From contig CANHCR010000002.1 in the NCBI GenBank assembly GCA_947459205.1, positions 8,498 to 72,497 on the forward strand: a stretch of 64,000 bases of DNA, in the 5' to 3' direction. Below are positions 27,038-51,551 of this stretch, piece after piece (position 1 is the first letter of the stretch; each line of letters starts with the position of its first letter). The notes beneath the pieces are model-generated. The model had not been told where the DNA came from and ran no database searches. It saw nothing but the letters and a program-made list of their open reading frames with translations. The translations under genes were made by a program, and so were the position numbers. The DNA comes from Bacillales bacterium (lineage in GTDB: Bacteria > Bacillota > Bacilli > Paenibacillales > CANHCR01).

Positions 27038-27063
27038 TTGTCATCCTCCCTTGAAGGTATCCA

Positions 27064-27735: not shown

Positions 27736-27751
27736 AAAAAACACCCCTTAA

Positions 27752-30700: not shown

Positions 30701-30982
30701 AATATAGACAAAATTAAACAAAGGGTTATCAAGCATCGAGACGATACTCTCCATCGCCTCGCGACGGGGGATTTCTTGATCGTGACTGATTGACTTCAGT
30801 TGCCAAAATGAACACTCCGGCCAGTCTAGCCGATCGTTAAACAATGATTTTTCCAAAATATCATCGGCACTCAATTGAGTAATCGGTTGCTGACGCAACA
30901 TCTGCAACCAATTTTTTTCCGTATCCAAATGTTGAATCGCAGTAACATTCGTTGGAAATGGGATTAACTCATTTTCATTCAT
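27752..30982 (-). CDS. HerA/FtsK-family (DUF87) ATPase with Ser/Thr/Gly-rich insert
   Basis: HVFVAGVTGSGKT, LVIEPAKTEY, LVEEAHR, EVRKYGEGLIIVDQIP, KNTNTKIIHKL. Confidence 0.9.
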   Translation of the reverse strand: MNENELIPFPTNVTAIQHLDTEKNWLQMLRQQPITQLSADDILEKSLFNDRLDWPECSFWQLKSISHDQEIPRREAMESIVSMLDNPLFNFVYILSGNGHQVDIYLGIVNNRINQQGLTEQQIRYKAKDINNILSRGIAAHFQGSKLHHLSRQEIEEKLLGSAAKMQRAGLLFGVPNISETEKQQSTQQQIDVQGIDRVINAMRGKEWQIVIVCEPVERAVVDREIEILSDMYDEIQRVSKVSFQLTAGESDGSSTSINVGDSDSYARGTSDSRALGINLGENEGSSRSKTDGFSTTHSTSSSDEDGKNSSSTSRTTSQSTTVGTQRGTSKGVSVTDTKGMSETDTVTKNRGVGVSNQVGTNRGGSISQEILDKRANDTMKYLDEELLKRLRLGMSKGLFKTSLYALAQDLLTYEQLRTCLMSTYQGDTVSVMPLAMVPFGNPSTDGKTSENETSLITHYQTFNSLAPENLSAEVAHLRGLPIDEKNRSVGLSTYLTPHEISIMAGIPLKEVSGIPLQEGVEFGINIPTIEVGSERTVLLGHVMQRGEELPRNQVLISRDNLMKHVFVAGVTGSGKTTTCQRLLIESQLPFLVIEPAKTEYRVLLNQFRELGITIWTLGKEQLAPFRFNPFELLRDTIISSHIDLLKASFTAAFHMEAAMPQLLEEALYKTYEDFGWDIDINENRKTEDPWEDDEGIFFPTLSDFINTLDKVVESKNFAPELKQNYVGSLVSRFNNLTVGSKGQMLNCRKSIDFEKLLDSRTILELEELKAPEDKAFLIGLILVRMTDAIKRRHRKDHHFRHLTLVEEAHRLLSKSDGHDSGAKRNAVEMFADLLAEVRKYGEGLIIVDQIPNKLAPEVLKNTNTKIIHKLLAKDDKEAIGDTMMMNDKQKQFLSSLEPGQAIMFTEGWTKPVNIKVVRNADTSSAELEDKEIKHMNWPSFREHLDGIVGKRFATLVRSMNDVEKEIESTGKLTRYLSVARRCLVKRSSDKAWRGKTKLPDFLELFAATIRVSDELGINARELIDESLNRFQKYREVLGFIQVNQGDFYNHLLELQKTNDEAEQILVADKLVDIIQ

Positions 30983-30999
30983 TGTTTCACCTCGATTTT

Positions 31000-35526: not shown

Positions 35527-35546
35527 CGTCTTGCTCCTCTCATAAA

Positions 35547-38500: not shown

Positions 38501-40253
38501 CAAAAAGCAGTTCGGTACCGGAAGGAAGTAAATCTATTACTCTGCTATCAGATAGACTTTCACTCTTCTTAAAACGTTCAAGTCTACTTTTTTCAGTGCT
38601 CGGCGTATTGTTGCTGGCAATTGACCGCACAGCGACAATGGCAGAATCTTTGATTAAACCGCTTGAAAAGCGGAGTACTATACTTTCAGTATTAATTAAG
38701 GAGTAATCGGCTTCTCCATTTTTAAGTGGCCATGCGTAATGCCTGGACTGTGGGCGATTTTCAAAATGTTCGGGTTTAAACTGTGAAGACATTTTCCAAG
38801 CGTTATCATTCAATTGCAGTGAAAATTTCGTTTTTTTCGTATCATGAGTCGAGAAAAACTTCACTTTAACATCTTCTAATCTGATGACACCATTTGTTGT
38901 TATGACGACAAGACTGAACTTAACATTTGTTAATCGAAGGAAATCTTCGATAGAAATCATGTCGCTAGGTTCACATGTCAATGCATAGCGATAATTATCT
39001 TTTGAACTGTCTAGAGTATTTTTGTTGCGGACATAATCAAATCCAGTAGTCGTAGTATGTGATAGAAGATGGACATCACATTTTGCGATTTTCTGTCCGT
39101 CCGCATTTACAAGCAATGCATCGAAAAGTCTTCCGCTAGAGTCACACAGAATTGGACTAAGCAATTCCAGTTGAAAATGATCCTCGGATCGTACAGGGAA
39201 TCCACTAAAGAAAATCAATTCGCTCATTTTGGCTGATGAGTCGATTTTAGATTCAGAAAGTAACGCAGATAGGACTTCAATCTGCTCGGTCCATTGTGAA
39301 TTCGTGTTAAAAAACCATATTTTTTTAATTGGCTGATCTTCTAACAACTGAACCAGATGCTCGCCGTCTGCTCTACTCAGTAGTTTGAGTAAATAAGATT
39401 GTTGTTCGATATTATCGAGTGAAATCAATCGATTCAATGCACCGGAGAATGCTTTCGAATCTGACGAAAATGCTCGAGCAACATTACTACAAATATGAAA
39501 ATCCATCTCAGTCAAAAATCTATGTATAAAAGAAATAAAAACTTCTTTTGCTACGATTTTTAATGTGCTGAAAAGTTTCGTGGAGAAGGATTCTCCTAAT
39601 GATTTCAATGTACTAAGATATGATTTCAATTGTTCAGGAGATATGTTTAATAGAACATCTGATAAATCAATTTCGATTTCATTCCAAATCTTAAACAAGA
39701 AAGTCGCTTCATCGTCTGATAATTTTGTAATCAATTCGTTAATTTTAGTTACATTCGATTTAATTATTAAATTTTCGGAAATACTATAATATCCAAATCC
39801 ATAAATGACAGAACCGTTATTAATGTGACCCCATCCAAATCTCCAGAGAGGATACTCTGTTCGAGGATAATAATTATCGTATTTAGGGCAAATGGGAGTC
39901 GTCGATAACATCTCAATTTCTTGATTATTAATTAATCCTTCAGTGAAGGATACTTCTTTATACCCACACAAATCAAAACCTAAAGTATAATGATTCGGGA
40001 ATAGGATTTTATTTACTTCAACCCAATTTCCATCATTTACGCCTTGATAATTCGCAAACTGTTCTTCTTTCAGTTGAAATTCATTCGAATATCTCATTGA
40101 AATTTTTGCAGACCATGCCCCAGGTAATTCGCAGTAAAATTTCCTTAAAAATAATAGTTTCTTCACTTTAAAACTAGGGTATACGTAAGAATATACTTCA
40201 AAACGAGTATCTCTATGAATCCCTTTCATCTTGCCTCCTCTTACAATTTCCAC
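35547..40253 (-). CDS. Giant Hsp70/actin-fold (ASKHA) ATPase-domain protein, paralog 1 (alternative start 40229)
   Basis: LCMDFGTS, LDEGVSVL, IIDSGGGTTD, FGGNNLT, LTGQS; C-terminus DFFDGLK as in paralog 2. Confidence 0.8.
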   Translation of the reverse strand: MEIVRGGKMKGIHRDTRFEVYSYVYPSFKVKKLLFLRKFYCELPGAWSAKISMRYSNEFQLKEEQFANYQGVNDGNWVEVNKILFPNHYTLGFDLCGYKEVSFTEGLINNQEIEMLSTTPICPKYDNYYPRTEYPLWRFGWGHINNGSVIYGFGYYSISENLIIKSNVTKINELITKLSDDEATFLFKIWNEIEIDLSDVLLNISPEQLKSYLSTLKSLGESFSTKLFSTLKIVAKEVFISFIHRFLTEMDFHICSNVARAFSSDSKAFSGALNRLISLDNIEQQSYLLKLLSRADGEHLVQLLEDQPIKKIWFFNTNSQWTEQIEVLSALLSESKIDSSAKMSELIFFSGFPVRSEDHFQLELLSPILCDSSGRLFDALLVNADGQKIAKCDVHLLSHTTTTGFDYVRNKNTLDSSKDNYRYALTCEPSDMISIEDFLRLTNVKFSLVVITTNGVIRLEDVKVKFFSTHDTKKTKFSLQLNDNAWKMSSQFKPEHFENRPQSRHYAWPLKNGEADYSLINTESIVLRFSSGLIKDSAIVAVRSIASNNTPSTEKSRLERFKKSESLSDSRVIDLLPSGTELLFGNEAMEWIKQDEKSRDKVWQDMSTWFIDLTETIELRDPNGNVAVVEKGKIVAFYIDSLLENVQNQLKLRNLVLDLIVNGKRYSSVRNLLQAYLPHITFGKGGSSSSSLEQVSEEEGMSISQIESELQSWWNTAIDANTDKLRAMHNLVFYEGLDIRPEDLVHLDTPGIDLDVRMPVVLVHRKDNPGHDEDAAGLIAVFQSIPDDEAYHRVFLKAKREHMLTDVLLNRETRHDFYLLAHANGKWWRAKVGDVKVYQPRIMKATTLCMDFGTSYSTCGMFSLELDGAPNSKVSALHEANPHRYAHIEVKDRSHNILKFAEQPRSFLRNETSVMAPTVIAVKDCSGETPVLLFGYDAERWAATYEFRTNVTIFRGIKRWIHKIDSPDQLRLKDIQGRVLQMTRFDLLRAYLLYIIGEAEQQFKCRFSHIHLTSPVKLKQYFLDAFSSMLNKPTEEGRTFTLEKENALDEGVSVLFNDIIAYGDTFKKSLKGSDIVSSSTRKAMIIDSGGGTTDVAACSYRFDADPDIGFDLHVETEFMNGDSNFGGNNLTYLLMQLAKIKLARACIPTFAENMNRELGVDKLSNLQLCETLIVAKKNLYRDVDEKRDLYTAINRWYEVAENIIPTRYGNYHDSADYDIVRSNFSFLWAMSESIKKEFFRQGNITNLGFFETRPNVIVQDLTEHIPLRIRLEGKTNLVAISEVWDVEESGGDDLSFSIRELEWLYRGAIYDRMNVFLNDLYETDRLKEFASIRLTGQSTKIGLFDESLKEFLPGKKIVFNRSNESYRDMSEYLKLACLVGVLDYQQLKSGASSWKLHIESKPIVVPYHLKRKPPTSDLYEVVIPKERLALKSEALKSQRELKPDVHGFYYHRARIETVQKMVLEYRLEDSFGNEREFIVDFKNQPTGEVVSHDEFVRIMSECHFPFVPEYQIVESMAREDVAHIFIAWNELYWGVSFLVLYREAGRIVFYRPIIERFENDQDFFDGLK

Positions 40254-40279
40254 ACTTACACCTCCATCAACTCATTTTA

Positions 40280-40375
40280 TCATTTTATTCCATCAAAGAA
40301 ATCTTTATCCTTCTCAAAAGGCAATGTCACCGGCTTATAAAATAACAACTTGTCCTCTTTCTTGAATACCGACAT
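40280..40375 (-). pseudogene. 3' stub of a third Hsp70-like paralog
   Basis: Translates MSVFKKEDKLLFYKPVTLPFEKDKDFFDGIK*, matching AVYKEDNRLLFRAPIHIPFEKDEDFFDGLK*. Confidence 0.85.
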
Positions 40376-40516
40376 TTTAAAGTACATTTCTTTTATAAAT
40401 ATAATTCAAGTTACCTCAAAATCAGTTTGTGAAAATCTAAAAATTTAATTATGTGTCTTGCCACCTGTTTTTATCTCAATCAAACTAAATTCCTCCCGCA
40501 AAGTGAAACTAATTGT

Positions 40517-42190
40517 TTAATTTACTTTATAATTCAATAACTGTCTGACCTTCTCTTCATCCACAATTCCAGCCTCATTCAAAAACACACCTGGCACACC
40601 GCCACTATAAACCCGCACGTTATCCTCACCAAAAATATCGATTGCAGCATCTATCGTTTTGCGTAAGTCAGTTTCGACTCCAAGTCGGCTCTGCAACGAT
40701 GTAAGTTTCCCCTCACACACCCAGTCCCCAGTCAGATTTTCCGCATCATAACCGACGATTGAACATTTACAGTGACTTCCCGTTTCACTATGCCTCCCCT
40801 TACGTGCCGCAAGCAAACTTCGATAGATTACATCATCCTCTGGTAGTGAGTAGCCCATAAGTACGATATGTTCGGCTCCTTCAAGCGACACCCTCATATC
40901 ACGTTGGATTTCTTCGATAAAAGAAGGATGCTTGCCTTTAACATTACTCTGCATAACAATCGGTGTATCTTTGACCCCCATTAGTGTTCCACAGTAGGCA
41001 CACTGATAAGCATCAAACAGACCTTTAGTTTGAGCTAATTGTTCCTCTTTCGATCGAGTCTTAAATCCTTTTGACAAAGTGGGTAACAAATGAGGAGGAA
41101 ATAAACTTTTGCTGAACATGTCCCATTCATTTCCCAAGTACATCGTCAACTTTCCGCAATTTGGGCACTCGCGCCAACCCGTGCAACCATGAGGGAAATA
41201 AAATTTACCAATGCGAACGCGTTTATCGGATACATGCTCATCATCATTGACGCGTTGTACGACCGTTTCATTAAACGGATACCACACATCCGGTGTATCA
41301 CCGTCGACTTTTCTAACACCCATAAAGTGTCCCAAGTCATGGAACATTTTTAATGGTGCTGGATGTTTATCGCCAAAATGAGGGCGTAAACCATGATCGT
41401 TATAATCCTTATTCGAACAAAACATGAGCCAAAGCAACAGCGGATCCCAATTCATTGAGATCACCGAGAAACTATGCAAGTAAAAACTGCGCTCCGTTAT
41501 CTTTTTACCCGACTCGTTGTATTTCTCGTGTGCCTCTTCCACCATCAAATCGCGCAACTTATCGACAAGCCCGCGATACTGATCAAAAATATGTCGTTTT
41601 TCACAAAGACTCTTTTGATAATCCAACGTTTGAAACAACAAAACCAGCATTTTCAGTGCATTTCTCGCACTGTCAAGCTGGTAAACATCAACAAAGTAAG
41701 GTGGACTGCCGTTTTTAGCATTGACGTAAAATCCTTGTCTTTGTGAAATGTGCAAATCGATTAAATTAAACAAATCGATGAGTTTGAAGTTGTTCCTACT
41801 CGCCCCTGGACACATCATCAGCAAATCACCTAGTAAACGAATATCATAGGTTTGCCGTAGTTCCCTTATCCGCCAATTTGCTTCTGAATGACTTAACATT
41901 GGTGCGCATTTCATAAAAAGCGATACACTACGTTCATCTGCATCATCATGTTCCAGAATATAAAATAAGTCGACAAGCCCTTTGTGAACGGATTCATCAT
42001 TCGCTCCAAAAACTTCTCTGACTCTTTCATATAAATCATCTTTATAATCAAGACTAAATAATTTATGTAGCGATTCACTAAGGCAAGTTGTGGTTCGCAT
42101 ACCTAGATTTCTTGTTGCACCAGCACCCCAAAAGATAACTGTTTTCGGCCAAGTCGGATTGTAACTAGTAAACTCTGTCATCTCATTCAA
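40517..42190 (-). CDS. Sir2-like protein with Zn-finger insert (putative NADase effector)
   Basis: VIFWGAGAT, ISMNWD, PHG..CPNC..CAYC, LMGYSLP.DD. Confidence 0.75.
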   Translation of the reverse strand: MNEMTEFTSYNPTWPKTVIFWGAGATRNLGMRTTTCLSESLHKLFSLDYKDDLYERVREVFGANDESVHKGLVDLFYILEHDDADERSVSLFMKCAPMLSHSEANWRIRELRQTYDIRLLGDLLMMCPGASRNNFKLIDLFNLIDLHISQRQGFYVNAKNGSPPYFVDVYQLDSARNALKMLVLLFQTLDYQKSLCEKRHIFDQYRGLVDKLRDLMVEEAHEKYNESGKKITERSFYLHSFSVISMNWDPLLLWLMFCSNKDYNDHGLRPHFGDKHPAPLKMFHDLGHFMGVRKVDGDTPDVWYPFNETVVQRVNDDEHVSDKRVRIGKFYFPHGCTGWRECPNCGKLTMYLGNEWDMFSKSLFPPHLLPTLSKGFKTRSKEEQLAQTKGLFDAYQCAYCGTLMGVKDTPIVMQSNVKGKHPSFIEEIQRDMRVSLEGAEHIVLMGYSLPEDDVIYRSLLAARKGRHSETGSHCKCSIVGYDAENLTGDWVCEGKLTSLQSRLGVETDLRKTIDAAIDIFGEDNVRVYSGGVPGVFLNEAGIVDEEKVRQLLNYKVN

Positions 42191-42618
42191 GCCTTCATTT
42201 GAATTTTAGCAATTCGAATCGAGTGCACTCTGGAATTATGTAGGATTGAAAAGATCGTCCCAATCTCCACTACAAAGCAAGCTTTTAGCTTTCTGAAAAA
42301 GATTTCTTGCATAATCCCTACAAACTGCTGCGGAATTTGAATCTTCGTCTCTTTATTCACCAGTCTACCAAGGTATGAATCTTGCATACTTACATTTTGA
42401 CTAAATTGATTCTGATCACACCATTTTACAAACAAATTATAATTATCTTTTACATTGCAAAAAGGACTAGATGTGAATCCAGCTACTCCGACAATCGTGC
42501 ACTCCATCGGGTAATTGTTAGTGTCATTGTAGATTAGTTCTTTCACCGTAGCCTCTATGAAATATTTTCTCGTTCTTATTCTATCTTTGACTCGGGTAAT
42601 TCGTTTTTTCGTTGACAT
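42187..42618 (-). CDS. Hypothetical protein overlapping the Sir2-like gene start
   Basis: RBS GAGGAG; stop/start overlap. Confidence 0.7.
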   Translation of the reverse strand: MSTKKRITRVKDRIRTRKYFIEATVKELIYNDTNNYPMECTIVGVAGFTSSPFCNVKDNYNLFVKWCDQNQFSQNVSMQDSYLGRLVNKETKIQIPQQFVGIMQEIFFRKLKACFVVEIGTIFSILHNSRVHSIRIAKIQMKA

Positions 42619-43119
42619 TAATTTATCTCCTCAAGCAAAAATTCCAATCACTAATTCGCCAACAATAACATTCTAAACTACTAGGATATACAAATAATGT
42701 CCATATAGTAAAGAAATCTAAGAAGAATTCTTTAGTTGTTGATTATAGTAACGTGTCGACAATAAGATGTATTTCCAGCAGTGTTTTACTGGTTCAAATT
42801 ACCTGTGAACAGTTTCTTAACTCCATGTTATGAAGAGTATCATATGTGTTTGAAATCCATTCCAGAAAAGATTCCATTGTTTTTCCCTTCACACAAAGCA
42901 TCCAACCAACCTTCAATGTCAGTTGTCGTTTTCTCCAGTTGATTTGCATAAAATCACGAGATAATTACTATTTAAGTTCCGAAAATTATAATTCTCCATA
43001 ATTGAGGATAAATCCTGCTAATTGCCGATAATATGTAAAATAATTAGCATCACCCATAAAACTCAATCACCAACGCCTCAAATTTTCGAGTCTTCTGTTC
43101 ACTGATCTCGAAGTCCATA

Positions 43120-43422
43120 CTAAAAATCGAGCATCACCTTCGCAAGTTCGTAAGTCTCCGGACTCTTCTTACCGGCTCTCTCTAAGCAGATGGTCCACAT
43201 CTTTTTGACTACACGCTCGACTTTCACTTCGTCATACTCTTCAAGCACCGCCAGCAAATAATTGTATAACGCATAAAACGGCAAATTCGGCGAAACCTCA
43301 AATAAACTTCTCATGTTGTATCGGGCTAAATATTTGACGATTAATATTTTCATGTCTTCTTCACAACCATCGAGCACCTCGATCATCACGCGGAATGAAA
43401 GATGAAGTCCATTGACGCTCAA
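43120..43422 (-). CDS. Hypothetical protein or gene fragment
   Basis: 100-aa ORF with protein-like composition in a decayed region. Confidence 0.35.
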   Translation of the reverse strand: MSVNGLHLSFRVMIEVLDGCEEDMKILIVKYLARYNMRSLFEVSPNLPFYALYNYLLAVLEEYDEVKVERVVKKMWTICLERAGKKSPETYELAKVMLDF

Positions 43423-43949
43423 TTTTCATAGCACAATGAAACTAAAACATCGACTAACTCATCGAACCTACCAGGAAGTCTTTTCTGTTTTGAGTTGTCG
43501 ATTTACTGCAGTAATATCGACAAATTCTTTGATTTTATTTTTCATTTCACGATTACTTGAATAGAGTTGACCTTGTCCCAAATTGTAAGAGAGAGAACAC
43601 AGTCTTGGTGCCAAATGTGCCAACGACACATTGCGCCTGTCGAATGAAATCATGGGTTCACTGCTTCATTTAATAATCCAACAAAATCCGCTCAAACTTA
43701 CGAGTCTTTTCAACATCCAATTCAGTATTCATGTAAAAATCTCGCATCACAACGGCCATTTCATACGTGGCCCGGCCCTTCGCACCGACTTGCTCGAGGC
43801 AAAATTCCTAGTACTTAAGTGCAAAACGCTCAACTATGACCAGATTAAAATATTACTACTGTTTATTAGGAAAATCTGTAGAGACGAAAAACATCTCGCA
43901 CACGTCATACTCGACTAAATAATAGACAATTAATATTGAACATCCTCAC

Positions 43950-44008
43950 AAGGCGAATCAAACGCCTCTAGCATGATTTGTTGCTCTCCCAAACTGAGCC
44001 AATCCCCC
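43950..44008 (-). pseudogene. Decayed tRNA-Ala remnant (acceptor 5' strand, D-arm and T-arm)
   Basis: GGGGGATTGGCTCAGTTTGGGAGAGC..AGGCG-TTTGATT-CGCCT; flank resembles 50838-50862. Confidence 0.6.
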
Positions 44009-44056
44009 TTGGTTATTGCCAATATTCACTTTTTCGTGCATTCCTGAGACGATTCT

Positions 44057-44163
44057 ATAGCAGTTAAAGTAGTTAGTTCGTCCTGCCAGCTGAGTTACTG
44101 TACATAAAAACTGGAGACAACTTGCGAACGTGTCCAGACGCGATAAACGACTTTAACTGCTAT
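44057..44163. repeat. Tandem pair of att-like sites bounded by a 14-bp inverted repeat
   Basis: atagcagttaaagt (44057-44070) / actttaactgctat (44150-44163); cores gtcctgcc and gtccagac. Confidence 0.85.
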
Positions 44164-44208
44164 GGAGTAAGATGTCGATGCTTGCGGATCGACCTCAAAA
44201 ATGAATAA

Positions 44209-44637
44209 TCATCCAAGTGCAGTGATAAACTTATTCGAAGATAGCGACTTTTTCCATCCGGCTTTCAAGATGAAGCTCAATAGATACCCGCGCAATCCTT
44301 CAAAGCCTGTATGTTCTAGTGTTAAAGTCGTTCCACCATCTTCAGCACTCAACTTCCAAGTTACGGTTGTAGGTTGCTTCATCCAGTTCCCTGCAAAAGA
44401 ATACACAAGAAGTTCCTGCTTACTTACTTGCAAAAGTTCACAATGCATACGTCCATCCCAAGAACCTTGAGGTTTCGATACAAACGAGAACTTGAAACCA
44501 ATCGGCATTTCATCCAAATTTCCTGGAAGGTCATTTTCCGTGAACCAAGTCGCCAAAGCATGTTTATTTGTCAATGCAAACCAAACTTTATCAATGGTAT
44601 GGGGATAAAATCGAGTGATAGAAATCTTTTTTGCCAT
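44209..44637 (-). CDS. SRPBCC/AHSA1 domain protein
   Basis: DKVWFALT..LATWF, TTVTWKL..GGTTLTLEHTGF, AGW. Confidence 0.9.
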   Translation of the reverse strand: MAKKISITRFYPHTIDKVWFALTNKHALATWFTENDLPGNLDEMPIGFKFSFVSKPQGSWDGRMHCELLQVSKQELLVYSFAGNWMKQPTTVTWKLSAEDGGTTLTLEHTGFEGLRGYLLSFILKAGWKKSLSSNKFITALG

Positions 44638-44640
44638 TTA

Positions 44641-44979
44641 TTATTCATCCTCTGAAAATTTGTCTAAGAATCGACCCAGTTCATCTAACTTGTCTGTCCA
44701 CAACGGCTCAAACATTTGAATCCACTGATTGACGCCCTGCAAAGCATGTCCTTGTAATTTGCAACGTGTTTCTCTACCTAACTTACTCATCGAAATTAAA
44801 CCGGCATCTTTCAAAACTTGTAAATGCTTCACAACTGCATTTCGACTTAGGGGAAAATGGTTGCAAAGTGATGCAATCGAATGTTCCCCAATCATTAACA
44901 CTTCCAGTAGTTTTCTTCTTGTACGATCACCGATTGCAAAAAACACATCCGTCTCACTCTCTATCTGCATGGTTGTCAC
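44641..44979 (-). CDS. ArsR/SmtB family regulator
   Basis: DVFFAIGDRTRRKLL, SRNAVVKHLQVLKDAGLI. Confidence 0.9.
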   Translation of the reverse strand: MTTMQIESETDVFFAIGDRTRRKLLEVLMIGEHSIASLCNHFPLSRNAVVKHLQVLKDAGLISMSKLGRETRCKLQGHALQGVNQWIQMFEPLWTDKLDELGRFLDKFSEDE

Positions 44980-44988
44980 ACCTCAATT

Positions 44989-45046
44989 ATAACACCATTA
45001 AGTGTTAATTTTTATCATAATATAACACTCATGATGGTTATGTCAA
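44989..45046 (-). promoter_or_regulatory. Promoter (TTGACA at 45041-45046) with two imperfect palindromes, likely ArsR operators
   Basis: AACAC-cattaa-GTGTT and ATAAC..GTTAT. Confidence 0.5.
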
Positions 45047-45055
45047 TGAAAGCAC

Positions 45056-45086
45056 AAAAAAAACGTGACCGCGTTCGTCACGTTTA
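45056..45086 (-). terminator. Intrinsic terminator after fic
   Basis: aaacgtgac/gtcacgttt stem plus T-run. Confidence 0.7.
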
Positions 45087-45119
45087 TAAATCAACTCATA
45101 TTATTAAGAGTATCTACAA

Positions 45120-45857
45120 TTACTTTATCATACATAGATATCGAACGAGTTGCTCATCCTCAAGAACAGCAATCATATCGGTAAACAAATGAAGATCTTG
45201 ATGAACAGCATATTCTTCCAGTGCATTAAAATACTCAAGCCTTGATTCTTTTTTGATTGAAATTGGCAAAAAACCATTTACCATCAACTGATAATTCATA
45301 ATCAACCGAGATGTTCTACCGTTCCCGTCCGCAAACGGATGAATTCGCACAAATTCAGCATGTGTCCAAGCAGCAAGTTCAATGACATTTTCAAACGTTT
45401 TTTGTTCTAAATCAAAATAAAAACCTTTGATTTGACGGTACATTTCATTTGGTGAAGGCGGAGTATGTGCAGCTCCAGATATGTATACATCAACATTCCG
45501 GTAAACTCCACCGATCATTATGTTTTCCATTAAAATAGCATGAATATCTTTGATAATATCTTCATTTAAAGGACGTTGTTCATTGATACACTTTTTCACA
45601 TATTGAAAAGCTTTATTATGGTTCACAACCTCATACAGCTCACGTAATTGTTTTCCACCAACGGAAATCCCTTCTTCAAGAACAACTTTTGTCTCAAGTA
45701 GCGTAAGAGTATTGCCCTCAATTGCCGTAGAATGATGGGTGTATTCGACATCAAAAGCCTGAGAATAACTATTGACTGTATAATCCGAAAGCAAATATTT
45801 CATCTTATCATATTTACGTTTTTTGCTTAATAACTCTTGATAATTCAACGATTTCAC
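45120..45857 (-). CDS. Fic domain protein (class II, N-terminal auto-inhibitory motif)
   Basis: HPFADGNGRTSR; STAIEGN. Confidence 0.95.
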   Translation of the reverse strand: MKSLNYQELLSKKRKYDKMKYLLSDYTVNSYSQAFDVEYTHHSTAIEGNTLTLLETKVVLEEGISVGGKQLRELYEVVNHNKAFQYVKKCINEQRPLNEDIIKDIHAILMENIMIGGVYRNVDVYISGAAHTPPSPNEMYRQIKGFYFDLEQKTFENVIELAAWTHAEFVRIHPFADGNGRTSRLIMNYQLMVNGFLPISIKKESRLEYFNALEEYAVHQDLHLFTDMIAVLEDEQLVRYLCMIK

Positions 45858-45919
45858 CTCGGAATCATTTAACTATTTTTAAATTCATTCACATTATAGA
45901 CCATTTGGAGTCAAATGTG

Positions 45920-46051
45920 CACAAAAAAGACGCCCAGACTGCAATATGTAGACCGAACGCCGATTTCACAATTCCAATTATGCAACCACTGTGGTTTGCA
46001 CTAATGCTATAAAGCAATACGCTCTGCCGTGTTAACTACTTTAACTGCTAT
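45920..46051. repeat. Terminator plus att-like site; direct repeat of 49124-49243
   Basis: gacgcccag.ctgc..agac.gaacgcc.attt..aattccaatta..gcaatacg..ctgcc. Confidence 0.8.
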
Positions 46052-46061
46052 AAAATTAGTA

Positions 46062-46433
46062 TTATACCCGTGACAAACAATTTTCAGACGAAAAAACATT
46101 CCGCATTTTAAACTCCGCCGGACTTTCCGCAAGATACACTAATCTCAATAAATCCGGTGGATTCCCCACAAAATACGGATCCTTCAAATAGTATTTCGAG
46201 TCGAACACCCATACAGGAATTTGCAAACCTGACTCACGCGCGAGTTTGTGGACTGCTGATGCAATAAGAGCAAGAGTACAATCATCTAAAGAAAGTCGGT
46301 CTGCCGACTCATTTATCATCTCAATTTTTTCCACTTTTTCCGCAACATAAAAAGCGTCTAAAAACATCGACCACGCGAATGTAAAATCTCTTCCAACGCT
46401 CAGATACTGATTGATAATCGATACCATATTCAT
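46062..46433 (-). CDS. Hypothetical partner of the nucleotidyltransferase (putative TA component)
   Basis: FLDAFY..ALIASAVHKLA..IPVWV..P.F..ESPAEFKMRNVF; overlaps the upstream gene. Confidence 0.7.
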   Translation of the reverse strand: MNMVSIINQYLSVGRDFTFAWSMFLDAFYVAEKVEKIEMINESADRLSLDDCTLALIASAVHKLARESGLQIPVWVFDSKYYLKDPYFVGNPPDLLRLVYLAESPAEFKMRNVFSSENCLSRV

Positions 46434-46966
46434 GCAAACAATCCCTCCGCAAACGCGACTGTCCTCACACTGAGAAACTTTCGCGGAACATACTTTTCAA
46501 CAATATCCAGTACGTCAATGTAAGAATTAAGTTTCAGATGATTTTTAAGAAAAATCGCATCCTCGCGGTCCTTGCTTCCCTCTCTTGCAGCATAGCATTT
46601 CATCGCCAAAATATATTCTGCAGTCGCTGACTGAATTTTTAGATTCGAGTATATTTTCACTTCAACATGTGGTGGATTTGTGTAAATAAACCCCTTGACC
46701 CCATCGTTCAACCAATCCTCTTGTATATTCATTTCCTTGGCAACTTCTTTGGCCATTTGATACAAATCTGTTTTCGGTTGAAAAATCGCATCAACATCGC
46801 GCGTGTATCCTCGACTTCCGAACACTAGACACATGGATGCGCCACCGAAAATGATAATTTCACCGTGCTCGTCGGCTTGAGCTAATCTTTGATTTAATTT
46901 TTCGAAACAAGCCAGCATCAGTTGTTTATCTAAATTCACATCTTTGTTCATCATATCCCCAACCAC
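46430..46966 (-). CDS. DUF6036-like nucleotidyltransferase
   Basis: IIFGGASM..RGYTRDVDA, WLND, YILAMK..A.R..D.ED. Confidence 0.8.
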   Translation of the reverse strand: MVGDMMNKDVNLDKQLMLACFEKLNQRLAQADEHGEIIIFGGASMCLVFGSRGYTRDVDAIFQPKTDLYQMAKEVAKEMNIQEDWLNDGVKGFIYTNPPHVEVKIYSNLKIQSATAEYILAMKCYAAREGSKDREDAIFLKNHLKLNSYIDVLDIVEKYVPRKFLSVRTVAFAEGLFA

Positions 46967-47086
46967 TCGAAATTTATATTCCTAGTTCAATTATACCCTA
47001 AATTGAAAAAGAGGTCGACGCATTCGCATCAACCTCTGAATTACGATACTGAAACAATCCCATAAATAGTTACCCAACGGTCTTTT

Positions 47087-47265
47087 AATTCACTAAATCA
47101 ACGGACCGCCATTCACCTTATTAAATCCTAGATTTAATTCTATATATTCTAATCTAGTCATTGCAAAAAACTAGATTTTCTAGTCTGCCGTTTGAGCTAC
47201 TGTACATAAAAACTGGAGACAACTTGCGAACGTATACAGCTGCGTTAAACGACTTTAACTGCCAT
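47087..47265. repeat. ~180-bp direct repeat of 2490-2670 with a tandem att-like pair
   Basis: Direct comparison of the two copies. Confidence 0.9.
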
Positions 47266-47354
47266 GAAATATTTTCAATAGATGAAATGGACAAAGTTAT
47301 CGACAGAAAAACAGATCCAAAACAGGGGGAGCGTATCGACAGTCCCCATACCTT

Positions 47355-47810
47355 CTAATTACATAATTTGACTGCTTCCCTAAATGCTTGGGCCAGATTC
47401 CCATTGCGTATGGATTTACCGATACAAATCGCGTCTTCTTCGGGATGTTCAAATCCATTTTTCACATTTTTTGACGGCTCAATTTTGTACCCTTCATCAG
47501 AATACCATTCTACGCTTATGAACCTCATGTTCTGAATTGCTTTTGCATATCCTCTAATCTTAAGAAGTTTCTCAATAACTGATGGCCTTAATTTCCCATT
47601 AGGTTCTATGACATTCCACTCATCCAATGCGCGAAGTAAATATGATTCTATTTTTTCATCGGAGTACCCTCGATCCAAAACATGATGCATGTCAAGGTCG
47701 CAAGTTACTCCTCCCCATTTTTTTGAAATCCCTCTTGGAATAATAATGATATCTTCATTTGATGTAATGTAAACACTAACCAATTTATATTTATAACCCA
47801 CAACAAACAC
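47355..47810 (-). CDS. Orphan CdiI/DUF1436-like immunity protein
   Basis: VSVY..IIIIP, L..AL, LKIRGY..A..M.FISV, YKIEPS, LAQAF.EA..LC pattern; no toxin gene adjacent. Confidence 0.5.
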   Translation of the reverse strand: MFVVGYKYKLVSVYITSNEDIIIIPRGISKKWGGVTCDLDMHHVLDRGYSDEKIESYLLRALDEWNVIEPNGKLRPSVIEKLLKIRGYAKAIQNMRFISVEWYSDEGYKIEPSKNVKNGFEHPEEDAICIGKSIRNGNLAQAFREAVKLCN

Positions 47811-47846
47811 CCTTTCCGCAAGCTTAACTTTAATGAGGATTAAGTC

Positions 47847-49061
47847 CTAAATCAACCACACGGGGACCATCAGATTTTGTCGGTCAATAGGTAACAACTC
47901 GCGAGAGACACATATCAAATTGCCTGTACCCATTCGTTTCCCTGTCTTCTCAAGTGCCTTGAAATGTCGAATCGCATCTGCTTTTGGCGTCCCAGACTTC
48001 TTCACCTCTATCGGATATAACACATCGTTCTTCTCGATCATTAAATCGATTTCCTTGCCATCTGTATCACGGTAGTAAAACAACGGAGGCCGCTTGCCAG
48101 CATTCAAAAAACTTTTGTAAATCTCGCTAACGACATACGTCTCAAAAAACGCTCCCGACATCGCCGAAACCTCAAGTGACTCAGGATTCGTCCACCTTGT
48201 CAACCACGCACAAAGTCCAGTGTCCATAAAATATAGCCGTGGCGATTTCACGATCCGTTTCAACGCATTATTGAAATACGGTTCAATCAAAATCACAATT
48301 CCAGACGACAATAGCATCGATAGCCATTGTTTCGCGGTCGGTGAACTGATGCCCACATCTTTTGCTAGTTCCGAGTAGTTTAATAGTTGTCCCGTTCGTG
48401 CAGCACAGGCAGTCATAAACCGCAAAAATGCCAATTCATCTCCAACCTGCGTCAATTCGCGAATATCACGCTGTAAATACGTATTGACGTACGAAGAGTA
48501 GAAAAGTTCGATGTCCTGTTCCGTTTCATAAAGTGCCGGCATCGAACCTTTGTGGATTCGTTTGAAAATCTCTTGAACATTCATTTCTTTGGCGGTTTTT
48601 AATTTATCTGATAATGAATCAAAATCAGGCTGATATGCGCCTGTGCTACCTTCTGAAATTTCTGCTTGAGACAGCCCTTGTATGGGAATCACCGCGACTC
48701 GACCAGCTAAACTCTCGCTTACATTTTTCATCAAATGAAACATCTGCGAACCAGTCAGCCAAAAATCACCTTTTCGCCTATGTTCATCTACATACATTTT
48801 TATATATGGCAGTAACTGCGGTGCATATTGAATTTCATCGATAATAAGTGGTGGTTGATATCGTTGCAAAAAAAGTTCGGGATCGGTCACTGCCAACTCA
48901 CGAATCACAGGGTTATCTAAAGTAACATAGGTTCGATCAGATTCAGCCATCGTTCGTAAAAGCGTAGTCTTACCCACTTGTCGCGGTCCAGTTAGTAATA
49001 ACACTGCATAAGCATGATTTGCATTTTGAATCACTTGTTCTAAATGGCGATTGATGAACAT
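47847..49061 (-). CDS. AAA_14 + DUF4143 ATP-binding protein
   Basis: GPRQVGKTT, IDEIQ, LTGS, KSPRLYFMDTG, FETYV, EIDL..IEVK. Confidence 0.9.
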   Translation of the reverse strand: MFINRHLEQVIQNANHAYAVLLLTGPRQVGKTTLLRTMAESDRTYVTLDNPVIRELAVTDPELFLQRYQPPLIIDEIQYAPQLLPYIKMYVDEHRRKGDFWLTGSQMFHLMKNVSESLAGRVAVIPIQGLSQAEISEGSTGAYQPDFDSLSDKLKTAKEMNVQEIFKRIHKGSMPALYETEQDIELFYSSYVNTYLQRDIRELTQVGDELAFLRFMTACAARTGQLLNYSELAKDVGISSPTAKQWLSMLLSSGIVILIEPYFNNALKRIVKSPRLYFMDTGLCAWLTRWTNPESLEVSAMSGAFFETYVVSEIYKSFLNAGKRPPLFYYRDTDGKEIDLMIEKNDVLYPIEVKKSGTPKADAIRHFKALEKTGKRMGTGNLICVSRELLPIDRQNLMVPVWLI

Positions 49062-49123
49062 AGCACACCTCGGTTATTTTAAAGTGCAGATTTATTATAA
49101 ACGATTTTCTGAAGTTATTCCAC

Positions 49124-49249
49124 AACAAAAAAACGACGCCCAGTCTGCTTTACTGCAGACGGAACGCCAATTTCCAAAATTCCAATTAATAAGATTTGCA
49201 TTAGTGTTTCATGGCAATACGTCCTGCCAGCTGAGTTACTGTAACTCAG
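49124..49249. repeat. Terminator plus att-like site (core gtcctgcc) ending in palindrome ctgagttac-t-gtaactcag
   Basis: Repeat of 45920-46028; arm matches 44080-44102. Confidence 0.8.
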
Positions 49250-49382
49250 ATTAATACTTTATTGATTTCTATATCGATAAATCATCAACAAAAATTATTT
49301 TCATACTTTAAAGTAAAAAAGTTTATTATTCTTTAAAAATTGTGTATAATAAAACTAAAAGTTTATTGTGGGAGGAACTCAA

Positions 49383-50621
49383 ATGTCCGAACTCATCGCA
49401 AGATCAGAGTACATGCGCCAACTTATCGATCACAAAGACATCGATTTGGTCAAAATCGTAACCGGCATTCGTAGATGTGGAAAGTCTTCATTACTCGAAT
49501 TATTCCACACACATCTCATTTCTTCCGGCATACCCGAGAACTGCATTATTCATATGAACTTAGAGTCGCTGAAGTACAGAGATCTGACCGACTACCTCAT
49601 ATTTTATGATTTTGTCAGCACGCGAATTTCTCAAAGCGGAAAAACGTATTTGATTTTCGACGAGTTGCAGTCAGTACAAGGTTGGGAAAAAGCAATCGAG
49701 TCATTTCGGCTCGATTTTGATGTCGATATTTACATCACCGGCTCGAACGCATACTTGCTGTCCACTGAGTTTTCAACCTTACTCTCAGGTCGCTACATCG
49801 AAATTCGCGTGCTTCCCCTGTCATTTAAGGAATTTTTAACTTTCTATGATTTTGGCTCCGAGGTCACCGTGGAGGATCAATTTCAAAAGTACTTACAGTT
49901 TGGTGGTATGCCCGTGCTCCGCCAATATATGTTCAATGAAATTCGAAGCAATGAGGCTTTGGAGGCTATCTATGCAACGGTGGTTTTACGTGACATATTG
50001 CAAAGAAACAATACTTCCGATCAACACATTTTGAACAAAGTCGTTCGATTTCTCTGTTCAAATATCGGCAGTATCACATCCCCGAACAATATCGGCAACA
50101 TCCTTTCCAGAGAAGGAGATATTGAATCAGCAAAAAGTGGTAAAAGCCAAAATGTCGCTGGCAAGACGGTCAGCAAGTATATCTCGATGCTACACAACGC
50201 CTTCGTGTTCTATGCAATTGGTCGCTACGACGTTAAAGGTAAGCAATTGCTAAAAACATTAGAAAAAAACTACATTATCGATTTAGGGTTCCGCAACATG
50301 TTGCTCGGTTACCGCGATGCAGACCGCGGACACATTCTGGAAAACGTGGTGTTTCTTGAACTGCTTCGTCGCGATTTCAGAGTATACATCGGAAAAGTGG
50401 GCGAAACGGAAGTCGATTTTGTTTGTGAGAAACCGAATGACAAAATGTATATCCAAGTAACTGAGAGCATGTCAAACGAAGATGTACGACAACGTGAACT
50501 TCGCCCATTGCAACGAATTCAGGATAACTATGAGAAAATCATTTTGACGATGGACAAAAGCTACATTCGTTCTTATGACGGAATTAAAGTAATGAATATT
50601 ATGGAATGGTTACTTTCGTAA
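49383..50621 (+). CDS. AAA_14 + DUF4143 ATP-binding protein
   Basis: TGIRRCGKS, FDELQ, ITGSNA, LENVV, EVDF, YIQV. Confidence 0.9.
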   Translation: MSELIARSEYMRQLIDHKDIDLVKIVTGIRRCGKSSLLELFHTHLISSGIPENCIIHMNLESLKYRDLTDYLIFYDFVSTRISQSGKTYLIFDELQSVQGWEKAIESFRLDFDVDIYITGSNAYLLSTEFSTLLSGRYIEIRVLPLSFKEFLTFYDFGSEVTVEDQFQKYLQFGGMPVLRQYMFNEIRSNEALEAIYATVVLRDILQRNNTSDQHILNKVVRFLCSNIGSITSPNNIGNILSREGDIESAKSGKSQNVAGKTVSKYISMLHNAFVFYAIGRYDVKGKQLLKTLEKNYIIDLGFRNMLLGYRDADRGHILENVVFLELLRRDFRVYIGKVGETEVDFVCEKPNDKMYIQVTESMSNEDVRQRELRPLQRIQDNYEKIILTMDKSYIRSYDGIKVMNIMEWLLS

Positions 50622-50643
50622 AGAATCAAATACTTTTCAAAAT

Positions 50644-50680
50644 AAAAAAGCAACACATCATTGAATGTTGCTGCTTTTTA
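50644..50680. terminator. Probable bidirectional terminator between the ATPase and tRNA
   Basis: agcaaca/tgttgct stem flanked by A- and T-runs. Confidence 0.55.
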
Positions 50681-50683
50681 CTA

Positions 50684-50754
50684 TGGAGCCATGCGGAATC
50701 GAACCGCAGACTGGTCGCTGCCAGCGACCTGTTTTCCCCCTAAACTATGGCCCC
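50684..50754 (-). tRNA. tRNA-Ala(GGC), intact, with atypical short D-arm
   Basis: GGGGCCA/TGGCTCC-A acceptor with G3-U70; GGTCG-CTGGCAG-CGACC; TGCGG-TTCGATT-CCGCA. Confidence 0.9.
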
Positions 50755-50780
50755 TTGAACTATTCTGTTGCGAATTTACA

Positions 50781-51000
50781 CTCATTTTCGGGTAGTGCAA
50801 CCGACTTAGTCGTCCTCCCAAACTGAGCTAATCCCCCTCGGTATTTCCATTATGCACTTTTCAATCTTTTTGGGGCAGTGAAACCGACTTGCTCGCCTTC
50901 CCCTAAACTATGGCCCCTTGTATCTATTTTGTTACGCCTTGCAGCTCATTTCAGGGTAGTGCAACCGACTTAGTCGTCCTCCCAACTGAGCTATGGCCCC
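50781..51000 (-). repeat. Three tandem hybrids of a tRNA-Ala 5' fragment and a common foreign arm (attL-like scars)
   Basis: GGGGCCATAGCTCAGTTGGGAG, GGGGCCATAGTTTAGGGGAA and GGGGGATTAGCTCAGTTTGGGAG each joined to GACGACTAAGTCGGTTGCACTACCC or GGCGAGCAAGTCGGTTTCACTGCCC. Confidence 0.85.
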
Positions 51001-51021
51001 GTTTTTATGAACACGAAACGT

Positions 51022-51050
51022 ATTATACAATCTTCGAACGCTATTTACAA
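51022..51050 (-). promoter_or_regulatory. sigmaA-type promoter of the original tRNA-Ala gene
   Basis: TTGTAA-N17-TATAAT ending 21 bp before the first tRNA fragment. Confidence 0.75.
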
Positions 51051-51068: not shown

Positions 51069-51551
51069 TCAGTCGTTTTTTCCGCGGGGCATGCCCGGCG
51101 TTTTGCGCAAAAGTCCGTTCAGTTCATCAATGAATACGTTGATGTCTTTGAATTGGCGATAAACCGATGCGAAGCGCACGTAGCTGACTTCATCTACTTC
51201 GAATAGTTGTTTCATCACAAGTTCGCCGATTTTGGTGCTCTCGACTTCGGAGCGAGCCTCGGAGCGCAAGTCGTTTTCGACGCGTGTGACGACGGCCTCT
51301 AATTGCTCGGCTGTGACTTGGCGTTTTTCGCATGCTCGAAGCAAGCCACGCAGCACTTTGTCGCGGCTGAATTCTTCGCGGCTGCCATCTTTTTTGATGA
51401 CCATGAGCGGAATTTCTTCGACCATTTCGAATGTGGTGAAACGACGTCCGCAGTTTTCGCATTCACGGCGCCGGCGGATGGAACGGTTTTCGTTGGCTGA
51501 GCGGGAGTCGAGTACTTTCGTATGGATATGATTGCAGTATGGACACATCAT
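51069..51551 (-). CDS. nrdR: Transcriptional repressor NrdR
   Basis: CPYC..KVLDSR..IRRRREC..C..RFTTFE, ATP cone, YVRFASVY. Confidence 0.97.

What the first reader, a model, noticed from the sequence alone, without database searches (positions are those of the whole stretch)
50684..51050. tRNA-Ala split three times in the D-loop and replaced each time: self-renewing integration target
Seen: after a sigmaA promoter come three different tRNA-Ala 5' fragments (20-23 nt). All break at the same D-loop position, and each is fused to the same ~25-bp arm. An intact but atypical tRNA-Ala(GGC) follows. The first fragment matches canonical Bacillales tRNA-Ala. Known: most tRNA-targeting elements use tyrosine integrases at the anticodon loop or 3' half and restore the gene with a duplicated fragment. 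Inference: here the element breaks the gene and supplies a whole new tRNA just inside its end, transcribed from the host promoter. That copy becomes the next target, giving nested accretion and possibly host dependence on an element-borne tRNA.
Basis: partly seen in the sequence, partly recalled or inferred. Interest (0 to 1): 0.85.

Follow-up and report, generated by a model that had tools for sequence, protein, structure and literature searches.

The report
Stacked scars of tRNA-replacing mobile elements
Mobile elements that use a serine recombinase have cut the host's alanine tRNA gene near its start three times, each bringing its own replacement copy, which left a stack of broken gene starts in front of a 54-kb defence island.

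Summary
On the minus strand, nrdR is followed by one promoter-like site and three units of about 82 nt. Each unit is a tRNA-Ala 5' part, an arm and a spacer. An intact tRNA-Ala(GGC) and one terminator follow.

- Two tRNA-Ala 3' remnants lie left of the window on the same strand, each behind a conserved element arm. They bound a 54-kb low-GC defence island.
- Relatives without an insertion carry one canonical nrdR-linked tRNA-Ala(GGC) and no fragments.
- The island holds the genome's only large serine recombinase (LSR). 22 of 29 homologue loci carry a full tRNA-Ala(GGC) or tRNA-Val(GAC) beside the gene. Eight have a 3' part starting at tRNA position 17-18 right after the LSR stop codon.
- Six other genomes of 400 show the same scar-then-tRNA layout. 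In four of them the intact tRNA has a different acceptor stem from the first fragment.
- The att sites share one geometry: motif, 12 nt, 2-nt core, 12 nt, inverted motif.

Still open: the attR partners of units 2 and 3, transcription of the array, and which element the LSR serves. This is a new variant of tRNA-targeted island accretion.

The parts
51069..51551 (-). nrdR, the host gene upstream of the tRNA-Ala locus
   Evidence: Pfam ATP-cone and Zn_ribbon_NrdR. Linkage of nrdR to tRNA-Ala(GGC) is seen in many order-level relatives.
51022..51050 (-). Host promoter-like site, TTGTAA-17-TATAAT
   Evidence: It is the only promoter-like site on this strand in 50550-51150 and matches 10 of 12 consensus positions. 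Function is inferred.
50918..51000 (-). Unit 1 (attL scar 1). Host-type tRNA-Ala 5' part at 51000..50979 ending in core AG, then arm at 50978..50954, then spacer.
   Evidence: The fragment matches the relatives' canonical tRNA at 21 of 22 positions. The arm carries the family half-site motif 12 nt from the core.
50838..50917 (-). Unit 2 (attL scar 2). 5' part of a GTTT-D-stem tRNA-Ala at 50917..50898 with core AA, then a diverged arm at 50897..50872, then spacer.
   Evidence: The first 18 nt are identical to the intact tRNA.
50755..50837 (-). Unit 3 (attL scar 3). 5' part of a third tRNA type (GGGGGAT...) at 50837..50815 with core AG, then an arm identical to that of unit 1 at 50814..50790, then spacer.
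   Evidence: The same tRNA type survives as a pseudo-tRNA at 44007..43940.
50684..50754 (-). Intact element-borne tRNA-Ala(GGC). It is the only tRNA-Ala in the draft assembly.
   Evidence: ARAGORN and Rfam at 57.8 bits. It is 1 of 44 tRNAs in the assembly. The same tRNA type occurs as an ordinary tRNA gene, preceded by promoter-like sequences rather than by an arm, in 10 metagenome contigs.
50639..50672 (-). Intrinsic terminator after the tRNA
46024..46053 (-). attR-like junction. The element's left arm (TTATAGCAGTTAAAGT-12 nt-AG) is joined to a decayed tRNA-like 3' part that begins AGCG.
43940..44166 (-). Relic module: a long arm repeat, then a D-arm mimic joined at AG to a right arm that is the exact inverted repeat of the left-arm motif, then a spacer like that of unit 2, then a pseudo-tRNA of the unit 3 type.
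25712..25837 (-). Relic of an unrecombined attP (left arm-AG-right arm) directly followed by a 73-nt pseudo-tRNA-Ala
   Evidence: It is not called by ARAGORN or Rfam.
3569..5269 (-). Large serine recombinase, 566 aa. It is the only one in the genome.
   Evidence: Pfam Resolvase, Recombinase and Zn_ribbon_recom. N-terminal YRVSSKNQ. It is the only PF07508 match in G000.
1..50683 (-). Low-GC island (GC 0.35-0.44, against 0.45-0.51 in the host flank). It continues 3.4 kb left of the window to G000:C2 5073. Cargo is mostly defence genes.
   Evidence: Composition. Type I R-M, Dcm plus restriction enzyme, Fic, nucleotidyltransferase modules, PDC-S01 twice, PD-T4-6 kinase and a HerA-like protein. The arm motif occurs 8 times on the minus strand and once inverted, all inside the island.

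Best explanation
The array is a chronological stack of attL scars. It was left by three successive integrations of LSR-type mobile elements into the nrdR-linked tRNA-Ala(GGC) gene.

Recombination takes place at a 2-nt core at tRNA positions 21-22, the boundary between D loop and D stem. The core is AG, or AA in unit 2. Integration separates the first ~22 nt and the host promoter from the rest of the gene.

The element does not restore the gene by carrying a matching half. It carries a complete tRNA-Ala(GGC) without a promoter, about 35 nt inside its right arm and in the same orientation. That tRNA is read from the host promoter and ends at its own terminator. It is also a fresh attB, so the next element inserts into it.

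As a result the scars pile up between promoter and tRNA, oldest first. Cargo and attR junctions are pushed outward, which built a 54-kb defence island.

Shown: the anatomy, the reciprocal junctions at the far end, the shared att geometry, the association of the LSR family with this tRNA site, and the same layout in other genomes.

Inferred: catalysis by the LSR, transcription and RNase P processing of the long leader, and the order and number of events.
For: 1. Three units break in one column.

2. Spacer type goes with the type of the tRNA that follows. Units 1 and 3 share arm and spacer (94% over 50 nt), and each is followed by a GTTT-type tRNA start. The spacer of unit 2 resembles that of the 44-kb relic, and both are followed by the GGGGGAT type.

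3. The core of unit 2 is AA. This matches GGGGGAAAAC in the GTTT-type tRNA it split. Units 1 and 3 have AG, which matches the GGGAG targets.

4. The intact tRNA pairs GTTT with AAAC across the break. It is therefore not a hybrid with the host 3' part. The same type is an ordinary tRNA gene, preceded by promoter-like sequences and not by an arm, in 10 metagenome contigs.

5. Two host-like 3' remnants lie about 52-54 kb away on the same strand. Each reads left arm-AG|AG(T/C)GCATC..., which is reciprocal to GGGAG|arm.

6. Geometry of motif-12 nt-core-12 nt-inverted motif is seen in G000, G206, G228 and G337.

7. LSR homologues were found in 31 of 400 other genomes. Of 29 loci, 13 have a full tRNA-Ala(GGC) and 9 a full tRNA-Val(GAC) within 1.5 kb. 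Eight have a 3' part from position 17-18 directly after the LSR stop codon.

8. The scar-then-tRNA layout occurs in G014, G064, G075 (two diverged units), G150, G228 (two units) and G296, which is 6 of 400. In closed genome G228 the attR with the host 3' part and the host tRNA-Lys lies 16.6 kb away, with the LSR in between.

9. There is no tyrosine recombinase on this contig, and the genome's only LSR is in this island.
Against: No 3' remnant of the GTTT type or the GGGGGAT type was found anywhere in the assembly. The attR partners of units 2 and 3 are therefore missing or decayed.

Both far-end remnants are host-like, yet only one host-type fragment exists in the stack.

The left arms found (ATAGCAGTTAAAGT) are only weak inverted repeats of the arms of units 1-3 (GGGTAGTGCAACC), so pairing rests on the relic at 25837.

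The LSR is 47 kb from the array and about 900 nt from the nearest arm, and it does not overlap an att site as in many relatives. Its tree position among Ala-associated LSRs is unresolved.

No closer relative of the LSR was found in the species collection, and the arm motif gave only chance hits.

There is no RNA evidence for this locus. The one RNA contig that holds the tRNA has other flanks.

The genome is a 73-contig draft. The k-mer contigs break at the repeat shared by units 1 and 3.
Confidence: 0.78

Rival explanations
1. The scars come from serial integration, but today's island and LSR are not the product of those three events. On this view the three elements were largely lost. The 54 kb is a patchwork of other insertions and rearrangements, and the LSR serves a different att site, such as the long arm repeats.
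For: Partner attR sites for units 2 and 3 were not found. The island holds four long arm repeats and two attP-like relics that the simple nested model does not predict. The LSR does not abut an att junction. A 1-kb nucleotidyltransferase module is duplicated at two element ends.
Against: The arm motif is confined to this island and lies in one orientation. The LSR is the only one in the genome. In G228 and G075, which have the same layout, the LSR is also kilobases from the junctions.
Confidence: 0.15
2. A single integration took place, and local tandem duplication of the attL unit by slippage or unequal crossing-over followed. There was no serial targeting.
For: The units are head to tail with a period of about 82 nt. 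In G228 the two units are identical, which duplication explains as well as integration does.
Against: The three fragments come from three different tRNA types. Units 1 and 3 are closer to each other than to unit 2, which lies between them. The core dinucleotide differs and fits each target. G075 has two diverged units, and the fragment type switches from host to element.
Confidence: 0.04
3. The units are parts of a functional leader or small RNA that happens to look like tRNA, not recombination scars.
For: They lie inside one predicted transcription unit. Each unit can form a hairpin.
Against: Rfam gave no match even at E up to 10. The folding z-score is only -1.5, and 12 of 200 shuffles fold as well. 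The arms carry the same half-site motif, at the same distance from the core, as att sites in other genomes.
Confidence: 0.02
4. The array is an assembly artefact of a metagenome-derived draft, with repeat units collapsed or chained wrongly.
For: The assembly has 73 contigs. The k-mer contigs break at the 30-nt repeat shared by units 1 and 3, so a shorter path cannot be excluded from them alone.
Against: Three runs from two studies give the same three pieces with no differences and similar depth. Independent genomes show the same layout.
Confidence: 0.03

Closest known systems
tRNA-targeted genomic islands with tandem accretion, for example tycheposons of Prochlorococcus (bioRxiv 10.1101/2020.12.28.424599; passages read)
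   Same: Site-specific elements integrate at one tRNA gene, new arrivals push older ones outward, partial tRNAs mark old events, and the result is an island of cargo and defence genes next to the tRNA.
   Different: In that paper 910 of 937 elements use tyrosine recombinases, and the integrated elements are flanked by partial tRNA copies that make up the att site. Here the break is at position 21-22, no matching half is supplied, a complete new tRNA replaces the gene, and the scars stack upstream of it.
ssrA-specific genomic islands of Dehalococcoides with a serine recombinase (PMC3146451; search listing and start of abstract only)
   Same: [quoted passage not shown]
   Different: From recall, not read here: the crossover is at the 3' end, with a short direct repeat that keeps the gene intact. 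No replacement gene is carried.
LSR prophages and elements that split protein-coding genes, such as SPbeta in spsM and A118 in comK (recalled, not from a call)
   Same: The same enzyme family, with short attP and attB sites, inverted half-sites around a 2-nt core, and a target gene that is truly broken by integration.
   Different: Those targets are protein genes restored only by excision. Here the target is a tRNA, and function is kept by a substitute gene that renews the target.
Integrons (recalled, not from a call)
   Same: A fixed host-side promoter, promoter-less incoming units inserted at one renewing site, and an array that records the order of arrival.
   Different: Integrons use a tyrosine recombinase (IntI) and attC/attI sites, and cassettes are expressed genes. 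Here the array consists of dead scars and only the last tRNA is functional. No IntI lies on this contig.

Membership tests
Large serine recombinase (protein family) | N-terminal resolvase catalytic domain, then a recombinase domain, then a zinc-ribbon domain, in a protein of about 450-700 aa | tested here: met
   PF00239 at residues 10-164, PF07508 at 196-290 and PF13408 at 312-382 in a 566-aa protein.
Large serine recombinase (protein family) | Catalytic serine in the conserved N-terminal motif | tested here: met
   YRVSSKNQ at residues 13-20. That this motif holds the catalytic serine is recalled knowledge.
LSR-type attachment sites | attP with imperfect inverted half-sites placed symmetrically around a 2-nt core that is identical in attP and attB | tested here: met
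   Motif-12 nt-AG-12 nt-inverted motif in G000 (relics at 44 kb and 25.8 kb), G206, G228 and G337. The core of unit 2 is AA, which matches its target.
LSR-type attachment sites | Reciprocal attL and attR junctions bounding the element | tested here: inconclusive
   The outermost pair fits: fragment 1 pairs with host-like 3' remnants behind a left arm. Partners of units 2 and 3 were not found.
LSR-type attachment sites | Recombination by the cognate enzyme | not testable with these tools
   This needs an integration assay.
Classical tRNA-integrating island (tyrosine integrase) | Tyrosine integrase gene at one end of the island | tested here: not met
   PF00589 matches lie only on contigs C1, C5 and C52, with none on C2. 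No Phage_integrase hit was found among the island ORFs scanned.
Classical tRNA-integrating island (tyrosine integrase) | The element carries the 3' portion of the tRNA, so the gene is regenerated as a host/element hybrid | tested here: not met
   attL is a 5' fragment joined to a non-tRNA arm. The intact tRNA is entirely of another type.
Integron | IntI tyrosine recombinase with attI/attC sites | tested here: not met
   No tyrosine recombinase lies on the contig. The sites have LSR geometry.

The most novel reading that the evidence does not exclude
A clade of large serine recombinases in this bacterial order has specialised on the D arm of tRNA-Ala(GGC), with a sister clade on tRNA-Val(GAC). 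One branch of its elements works as a promoter-anchored, self-renewing landing pad. Each element destroys the resident tRNA, installs its own promoter-less tRNA as both the substitute and the next attB, and can shift the 2-nt core (AG to AA) to follow or escape competitors. The attL stack would then be a readable ledger of invasions, and the host would become dependent on whichever element arrived last. Small segments without an LSR, such as the 4.7-kb segment next to the tRNA, would be mobilised in trans like cassettes.
Probability: 0.35. Interest if true: 0.8.

Novelty: new variant of a known kind. Interest (0 to 1): 0.62.

Why it matters
Integration at tRNA genes is textbook for tyrosine integrases, which cut in the anticodon loop, T loop or 3' end and repair the gene with a duplicated piece. 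This case differs in three ways: the enzyme family, the sublocation (D arm) and the repair logic (replacing the whole gene under the host promoter).

It explains how a 54-kb defence island was built next to nrdR. It also gives a scar stack that orders the events. The same logic recurs in at least six other genomes of the order, so it is a lineage trait and not a curiosity of one genome.

In practice, an LSR whose natural attB is a highly conserved tRNA segment would be a ready-made landing site in many Bacillota for integrase-based engineering.

My seven literature searches found no description of this. The library lacks most subscription journals, and supplements were closed, so earlier mention in large LSR or island catalogues cannot be excluded.

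Tried and rejected
- The search for related loci with the LSR in genome contigs found 13 pattern hits, none a relative.
- The exact left-arm pattern in genome contigs gave 29 hits. All were single and in unrelated taxa, which is about the number expected by chance.
- Viral contigs gave 0 hits for the tRNA 5' pattern, 1 chance hit for the arms of units 1-3 and 6 chance hits for the left arm.
- Rfam at E up to 10 found no tRNA remnant inside the window. A T-arm pattern scan found none on C2. nhmmer with a tRNA-Ala profile was needed to find the two remnants.
- tblastn with the three genes beyond the far end found no match in the relatives' loci. The host identity of that flank therefore rests on GC content only.
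- The LSR tree did not place the G000 enzyme with support. It sits in an open polytomy with G075, G228 and G313. Row L061 (a 239-aa fragment) was left out.
- Sequencing runs: only DNA contigs of 3 runs hold the locus. RNA run X8 holds the tRNA sequence with other flanks, so it says nothing about transcription here. The 267-nt 'joint' is a different gene, a tRNA-Ile/tRNA-Ala(UGC) spacer contig at 2-3 times the depth, and not a deletion form.
- The search of earlier findings returned nothing.
- I considered and dropped the idea that the left-arm motif is itself a decayed tRNA fragment, because the register does not fit.
- Paper PMC100330 (Williams 2002) is not held. What I say about classical sublocations is recalled.

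Full report
**What is there**

The window is G000:C2:8498-72497. The following features lie in order on the minus strand.
- nrdR at 51551..51069.
- One sigma-70-like site, TTGTAA-17-TATAAT, at 51050..51022.
- Three head-to-tail units at 51000..50918, 50917..50838 and 50837..50755.
- An intact tRNA-Ala(GGC) at 50754..50684, called by ARAGORN and by Rfam at 57.8 bits.
- The only terminator on that strand, at 50672..50649.

Each unit has three parts: the first 20-23 nt of a tRNA-Ala, which is the acceptor 5' strand, the D-stem 5' strand and the D loop; a 25-26-nt arm; and a spacer of about 35 nt. All three fragments end in the same alignment column. The arms of units 1 and 3 are identical, and the arm of unit 2 is a diverged version.

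The three fragments are of three kinds.
- Fragment 1 is the canonical type of order-level relatives and matches at 21 of 22 positions.
- Fragment 2 has the unusual GTTT D stem of the intact tRNA downstream, with 18 of 18 nt identical.
- Fragment 3 (GGGGGAT...) is a third type. It survives as a pseudo-tRNA at 44007..43940.

**The island and its far end**

DNA to the left of the tRNA has GC 0.35-0.44, against 0.45-0.51 on the nrdR side. I laid the whole genome and searched it with a profile built from 19 tRNA-Ala genes. This gave two partial matches to profile positions 38-73, left of the window and on the same strand: C2 6952..6917 (27 bits, E 9.5e-06) and C2 5107..5073 (14.7 bits, E 0.067).

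Each remnant is preceded by CCATAGCAGTTAAAGT, then 12 nt, then AG. After that the sequence reads AGTGCATCA or TCCGCATCA. This is the tRNA from position 23 onward and is reciprocal to the GGGAG|arm junctions in the stack. GC rises again beyond C2 5000. The island is therefore about 54 kb long.

The 16-nt arm motif, allowing up to 3 mismatches, occurs eight times on the minus strand and once inverted, all inside the island. Matches elsewhere in the genome all have three mismatches, apart from one hit with two.

Four copies are short left arms joined to other sequence:
- at 46053 to a decayed tRNA-like 3' part;
- at the two far-end remnants to tRNA-Ala 3' parts;
- at 25837 to a right arm followed directly by a 73-nt pseudo-tRNA-Ala, which looks like an unrecombined attP next to its tRNA.

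Four copies are long versions of about 185-220 nt.

**Cargo**

Cargo is mostly defence-related:
- type I R-M;
- Dcm plus a restriction enzyme;
- Fic;
- two nucleotidyltransferase modules;
- two PDC-S01 ATPases;
- a PD-T4-6-like kinase;
- a HerA-like protein next to two giant ORFs with no family match.

**Recombinase**

The island holds a 566-aa large serine recombinase at 3569..5269. It has Resolvase, Recombinase and Zn_ribbon_recom domains and an N-terminal YRVSSKNQ motif. It is the only PF07508 match in the genome. The three PF00589 matches lie on other contigs.

**Relatives**

No genome of the same family is held. All relatives are 'same order'.

In the 29 nrdR loci fetched from relatives, 16 showed intact tRNA-Ala genes with no fragment, one (G014) showed a scar plus a tRNA, and 12 showed nothing within 1.5 kb.

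LSR homologues at E <= 1e-60 occur in 31 of 400 other genomes, at 34-50% identity. In the 29 loci fetched (1.5 kb on each side):
- 13 have a full tRNA-Ala(GGC) and 9 a full tRNA-Val(GAC) next to the gene;
- 7 have neither, although one of those has a strong 3' part;
- 8 have a tRNA-Ala 3' part starting at profile position 17-18 directly after the LSR stop codon.

In a maximum-likelihood tree the Val-associated enzymes form one clade (100/100) and most Ala-associated ones form another (97/95). The G000 enzyme sits in an unresolved base with G075, G228 and G313.

**Two layouts**

In layout I (G104, G206, G337 and others) the new tRNA has its own promoter and lies divergent from the LSR at the attR end. 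In G206 and G337 the attL scar lies downstream of nrdR, about 0.3 kb and 2.4 kb beyond it.

Layout II is the layout of the window: promoter, then one or more units of fragment, arm and spacer, then an intact tRNA. A pattern search for two D arms 62-92 nt apart hit 7 of 401 genomes, and the reversed control hit 1. One hit (G153) is two ordinary tRNAs. The other six (G014, G064, G075, G150, G228, G296) are scars.

G075 has two diverged units. Its first fragment is the host type of its family (GGGGCCT). Its second fragment and the intact tRNA are GGGGAAT, with the matching 3' strand ATTCTCC. G296, G150 and G064 show the same switch of acceptor type.

In the closed genome G228 the stack is followed by tRNA-Ala, tRNA-Lys, cargo and the LSR. 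At 16.6 kb there is a left arm joined to a tRNA-Ala 3' part (profile position 17 onward), followed by a second tRNA-Lys.

These cases show that the intact tRNA belongs to the incoming DNA.

**Site geometry**

I aligned the left arms with the reverse complements of the right arms on the junction. G206, G228, G337 and G000 all show an outer motif (consensus GG[T/C]AGTG..., or ATAGCAG... in the G000 left arms), then 12 nt, then a 2-nt core, then 12 nt, then the inverted motif. This is the layout expected of serine-integrase attP sites. That expectation is recalled knowledge, in line with the paper listed as PMC3783163, of which I saw only the listing.

The core is AG at tRNA positions 21-22. In unit 2 the aligned core is AA. 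That is what the GTTT-type tRNA has at this place (GGGGGAAAAC). The element that made unit 2 was therefore adapted to the tRNA brought by the previous element.

**Origin of the intact tRNA**

Its D stem pairs GTTT with AAAC across the crossover, so it cannot be a hybrid with the host 3' part. The same tRNA type occurs in 10 metagenome contigs, where it is preceded by promoter-like sequences rather than by an arm and has an encoded CCA end. There it is an ordinary gene of some other lineage.

It is the only tRNA-Ala in this draft assembly of 44 tRNAs. A contig at 2-3 times the depth in the same samples carries tRNA-Ile and tRNA-Ala(UGC), probably from the unassembled rRNA operons. The host therefore probably keeps a second alanine tRNA, and dependence on the element-borne tRNA is likely partial. 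This last point is an inference.

**Independent assembly**

Contigs of three DNA runs from two studies reproduce 50300-50819, 50792-50983 and 50956-51400 without any difference and at similar depth. They break at the 30-nt repeat shared by units 1 and 3.

**What does not fit**

- No 3' remnant of the GTTT type or the GGGGGAT type exists in the assembly.
- Both far-end remnants are host-like. Both have 33-60 nt in place of the anticodon loop.
- The left arms are poor inverted repeats of the arms of units 1-3.
- The LSR abuts no junction.

The island is therefore a decayed patchwork. Only the outermost pair of junctions can be matched.

**Rivals**

Tandem duplication, a structured leader RNA (folding z-score -1.5; no Rfam match) and misassembly are each unlikely, for the reasons given in the Rival explanations section.

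**Comparison with the literature**

Tandem accretion at tRNA genes is known. For tycheposons I read passages of 10.1101/2020.12.28.424599. A paper on Dehalococcoides islands integrated at the tmRNA gene mentions serine recombinase (PMC3146451, listing only). Seven searches found no report of a serine recombinase that cuts a tRNA D arm, nor of whole-tRNA replacement under the host promoter.

**Verdict**

It is a new variant of a known kind.

Noticed in passing
window 47269-47085, 44166-44083, 2673-2488, 49-1 (running on to G000:C2 8330): There are four copies of a long repeat at 77-88% identity. Each has an attP-like left arm plus a right-arm-like stretch with TG at the core, then 11 nt, then a D-arm mimic (GTACAGTAGCTCAAACGRCAG). 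In three copies a conserved ~100-nt stretch with CTAG hairpins and a promoter-like TTATACAATG..TATAAAG follows. In the 44-kb copy the mimic is joined at AG to another element's right arm, as if the mimic had served as an attB.
   Followed up: partly
G000:C2 7030-6953 and 5160-5108 (left of the window): In both far-end tRNA-Ala 3' remnants the anticodon loop is replaced by unrelated inserts of about 60 and 33 nt, while the flanking stem halves and the T arm remain. The reason is unknown.
   Followed up: no
window 46024-47064 and G000:C2 5149-6187: A 1-kb module, made of a DUF2204/DUF6036 nucleotidyltransferase and a small ORF, is duplicated at 82% identity. Each copy ends at a short left arm. 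It may be a toxin-antitoxin-like stabiliser at element ends.
   Followed up: no
window 27752-40253: Two paralogous giant ORFs of 1568 and 1508 aa (65-70% DNA identity over several stretches) have no Pfam or PADLOC match. They sit next to a 1076-aa HerA/mad8-like ATPase. This is a candidate uncharacterised defence system.
   Followed up: partly
G000:C1 10041-10009 and 11602-11528: A tRNA-Val(GAC)-like 3' remnant lies 1.5 kb downstream of the intact tRNA-Val(GAC), with a dip in GC. This is possibly a second small insertion at a tRNA. Relatives have an LSR clade tied to tRNA-Val(GAC).
   Followed up: no
G000:C54 11922-11938 and 13311-13327: The sequence AGGGGTTCAAATCCCCTCGCCTCCA occurs twice, 1.4 kb apart. 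It looks like a duplicated tmRNA or tRNA 3' end that marks another integration site.
   Followed up: no
L092 966-1140 and L109 1497-1635 (G228); L101, L102: In G228, G296 and G150 the element-side tRNA-Ala is followed by a tRNA-Lys(CTT) like the host's own. These elements seem to carry a captured Ala-Lys pair.
   Followed up: partly
window 5750-6738: Two small resolvase-type ORFs of 137 and 191 aa lie just upstream of the LSR. Their role is unknown; it could be inversion, resolution or a remnant.
   Followed up: no
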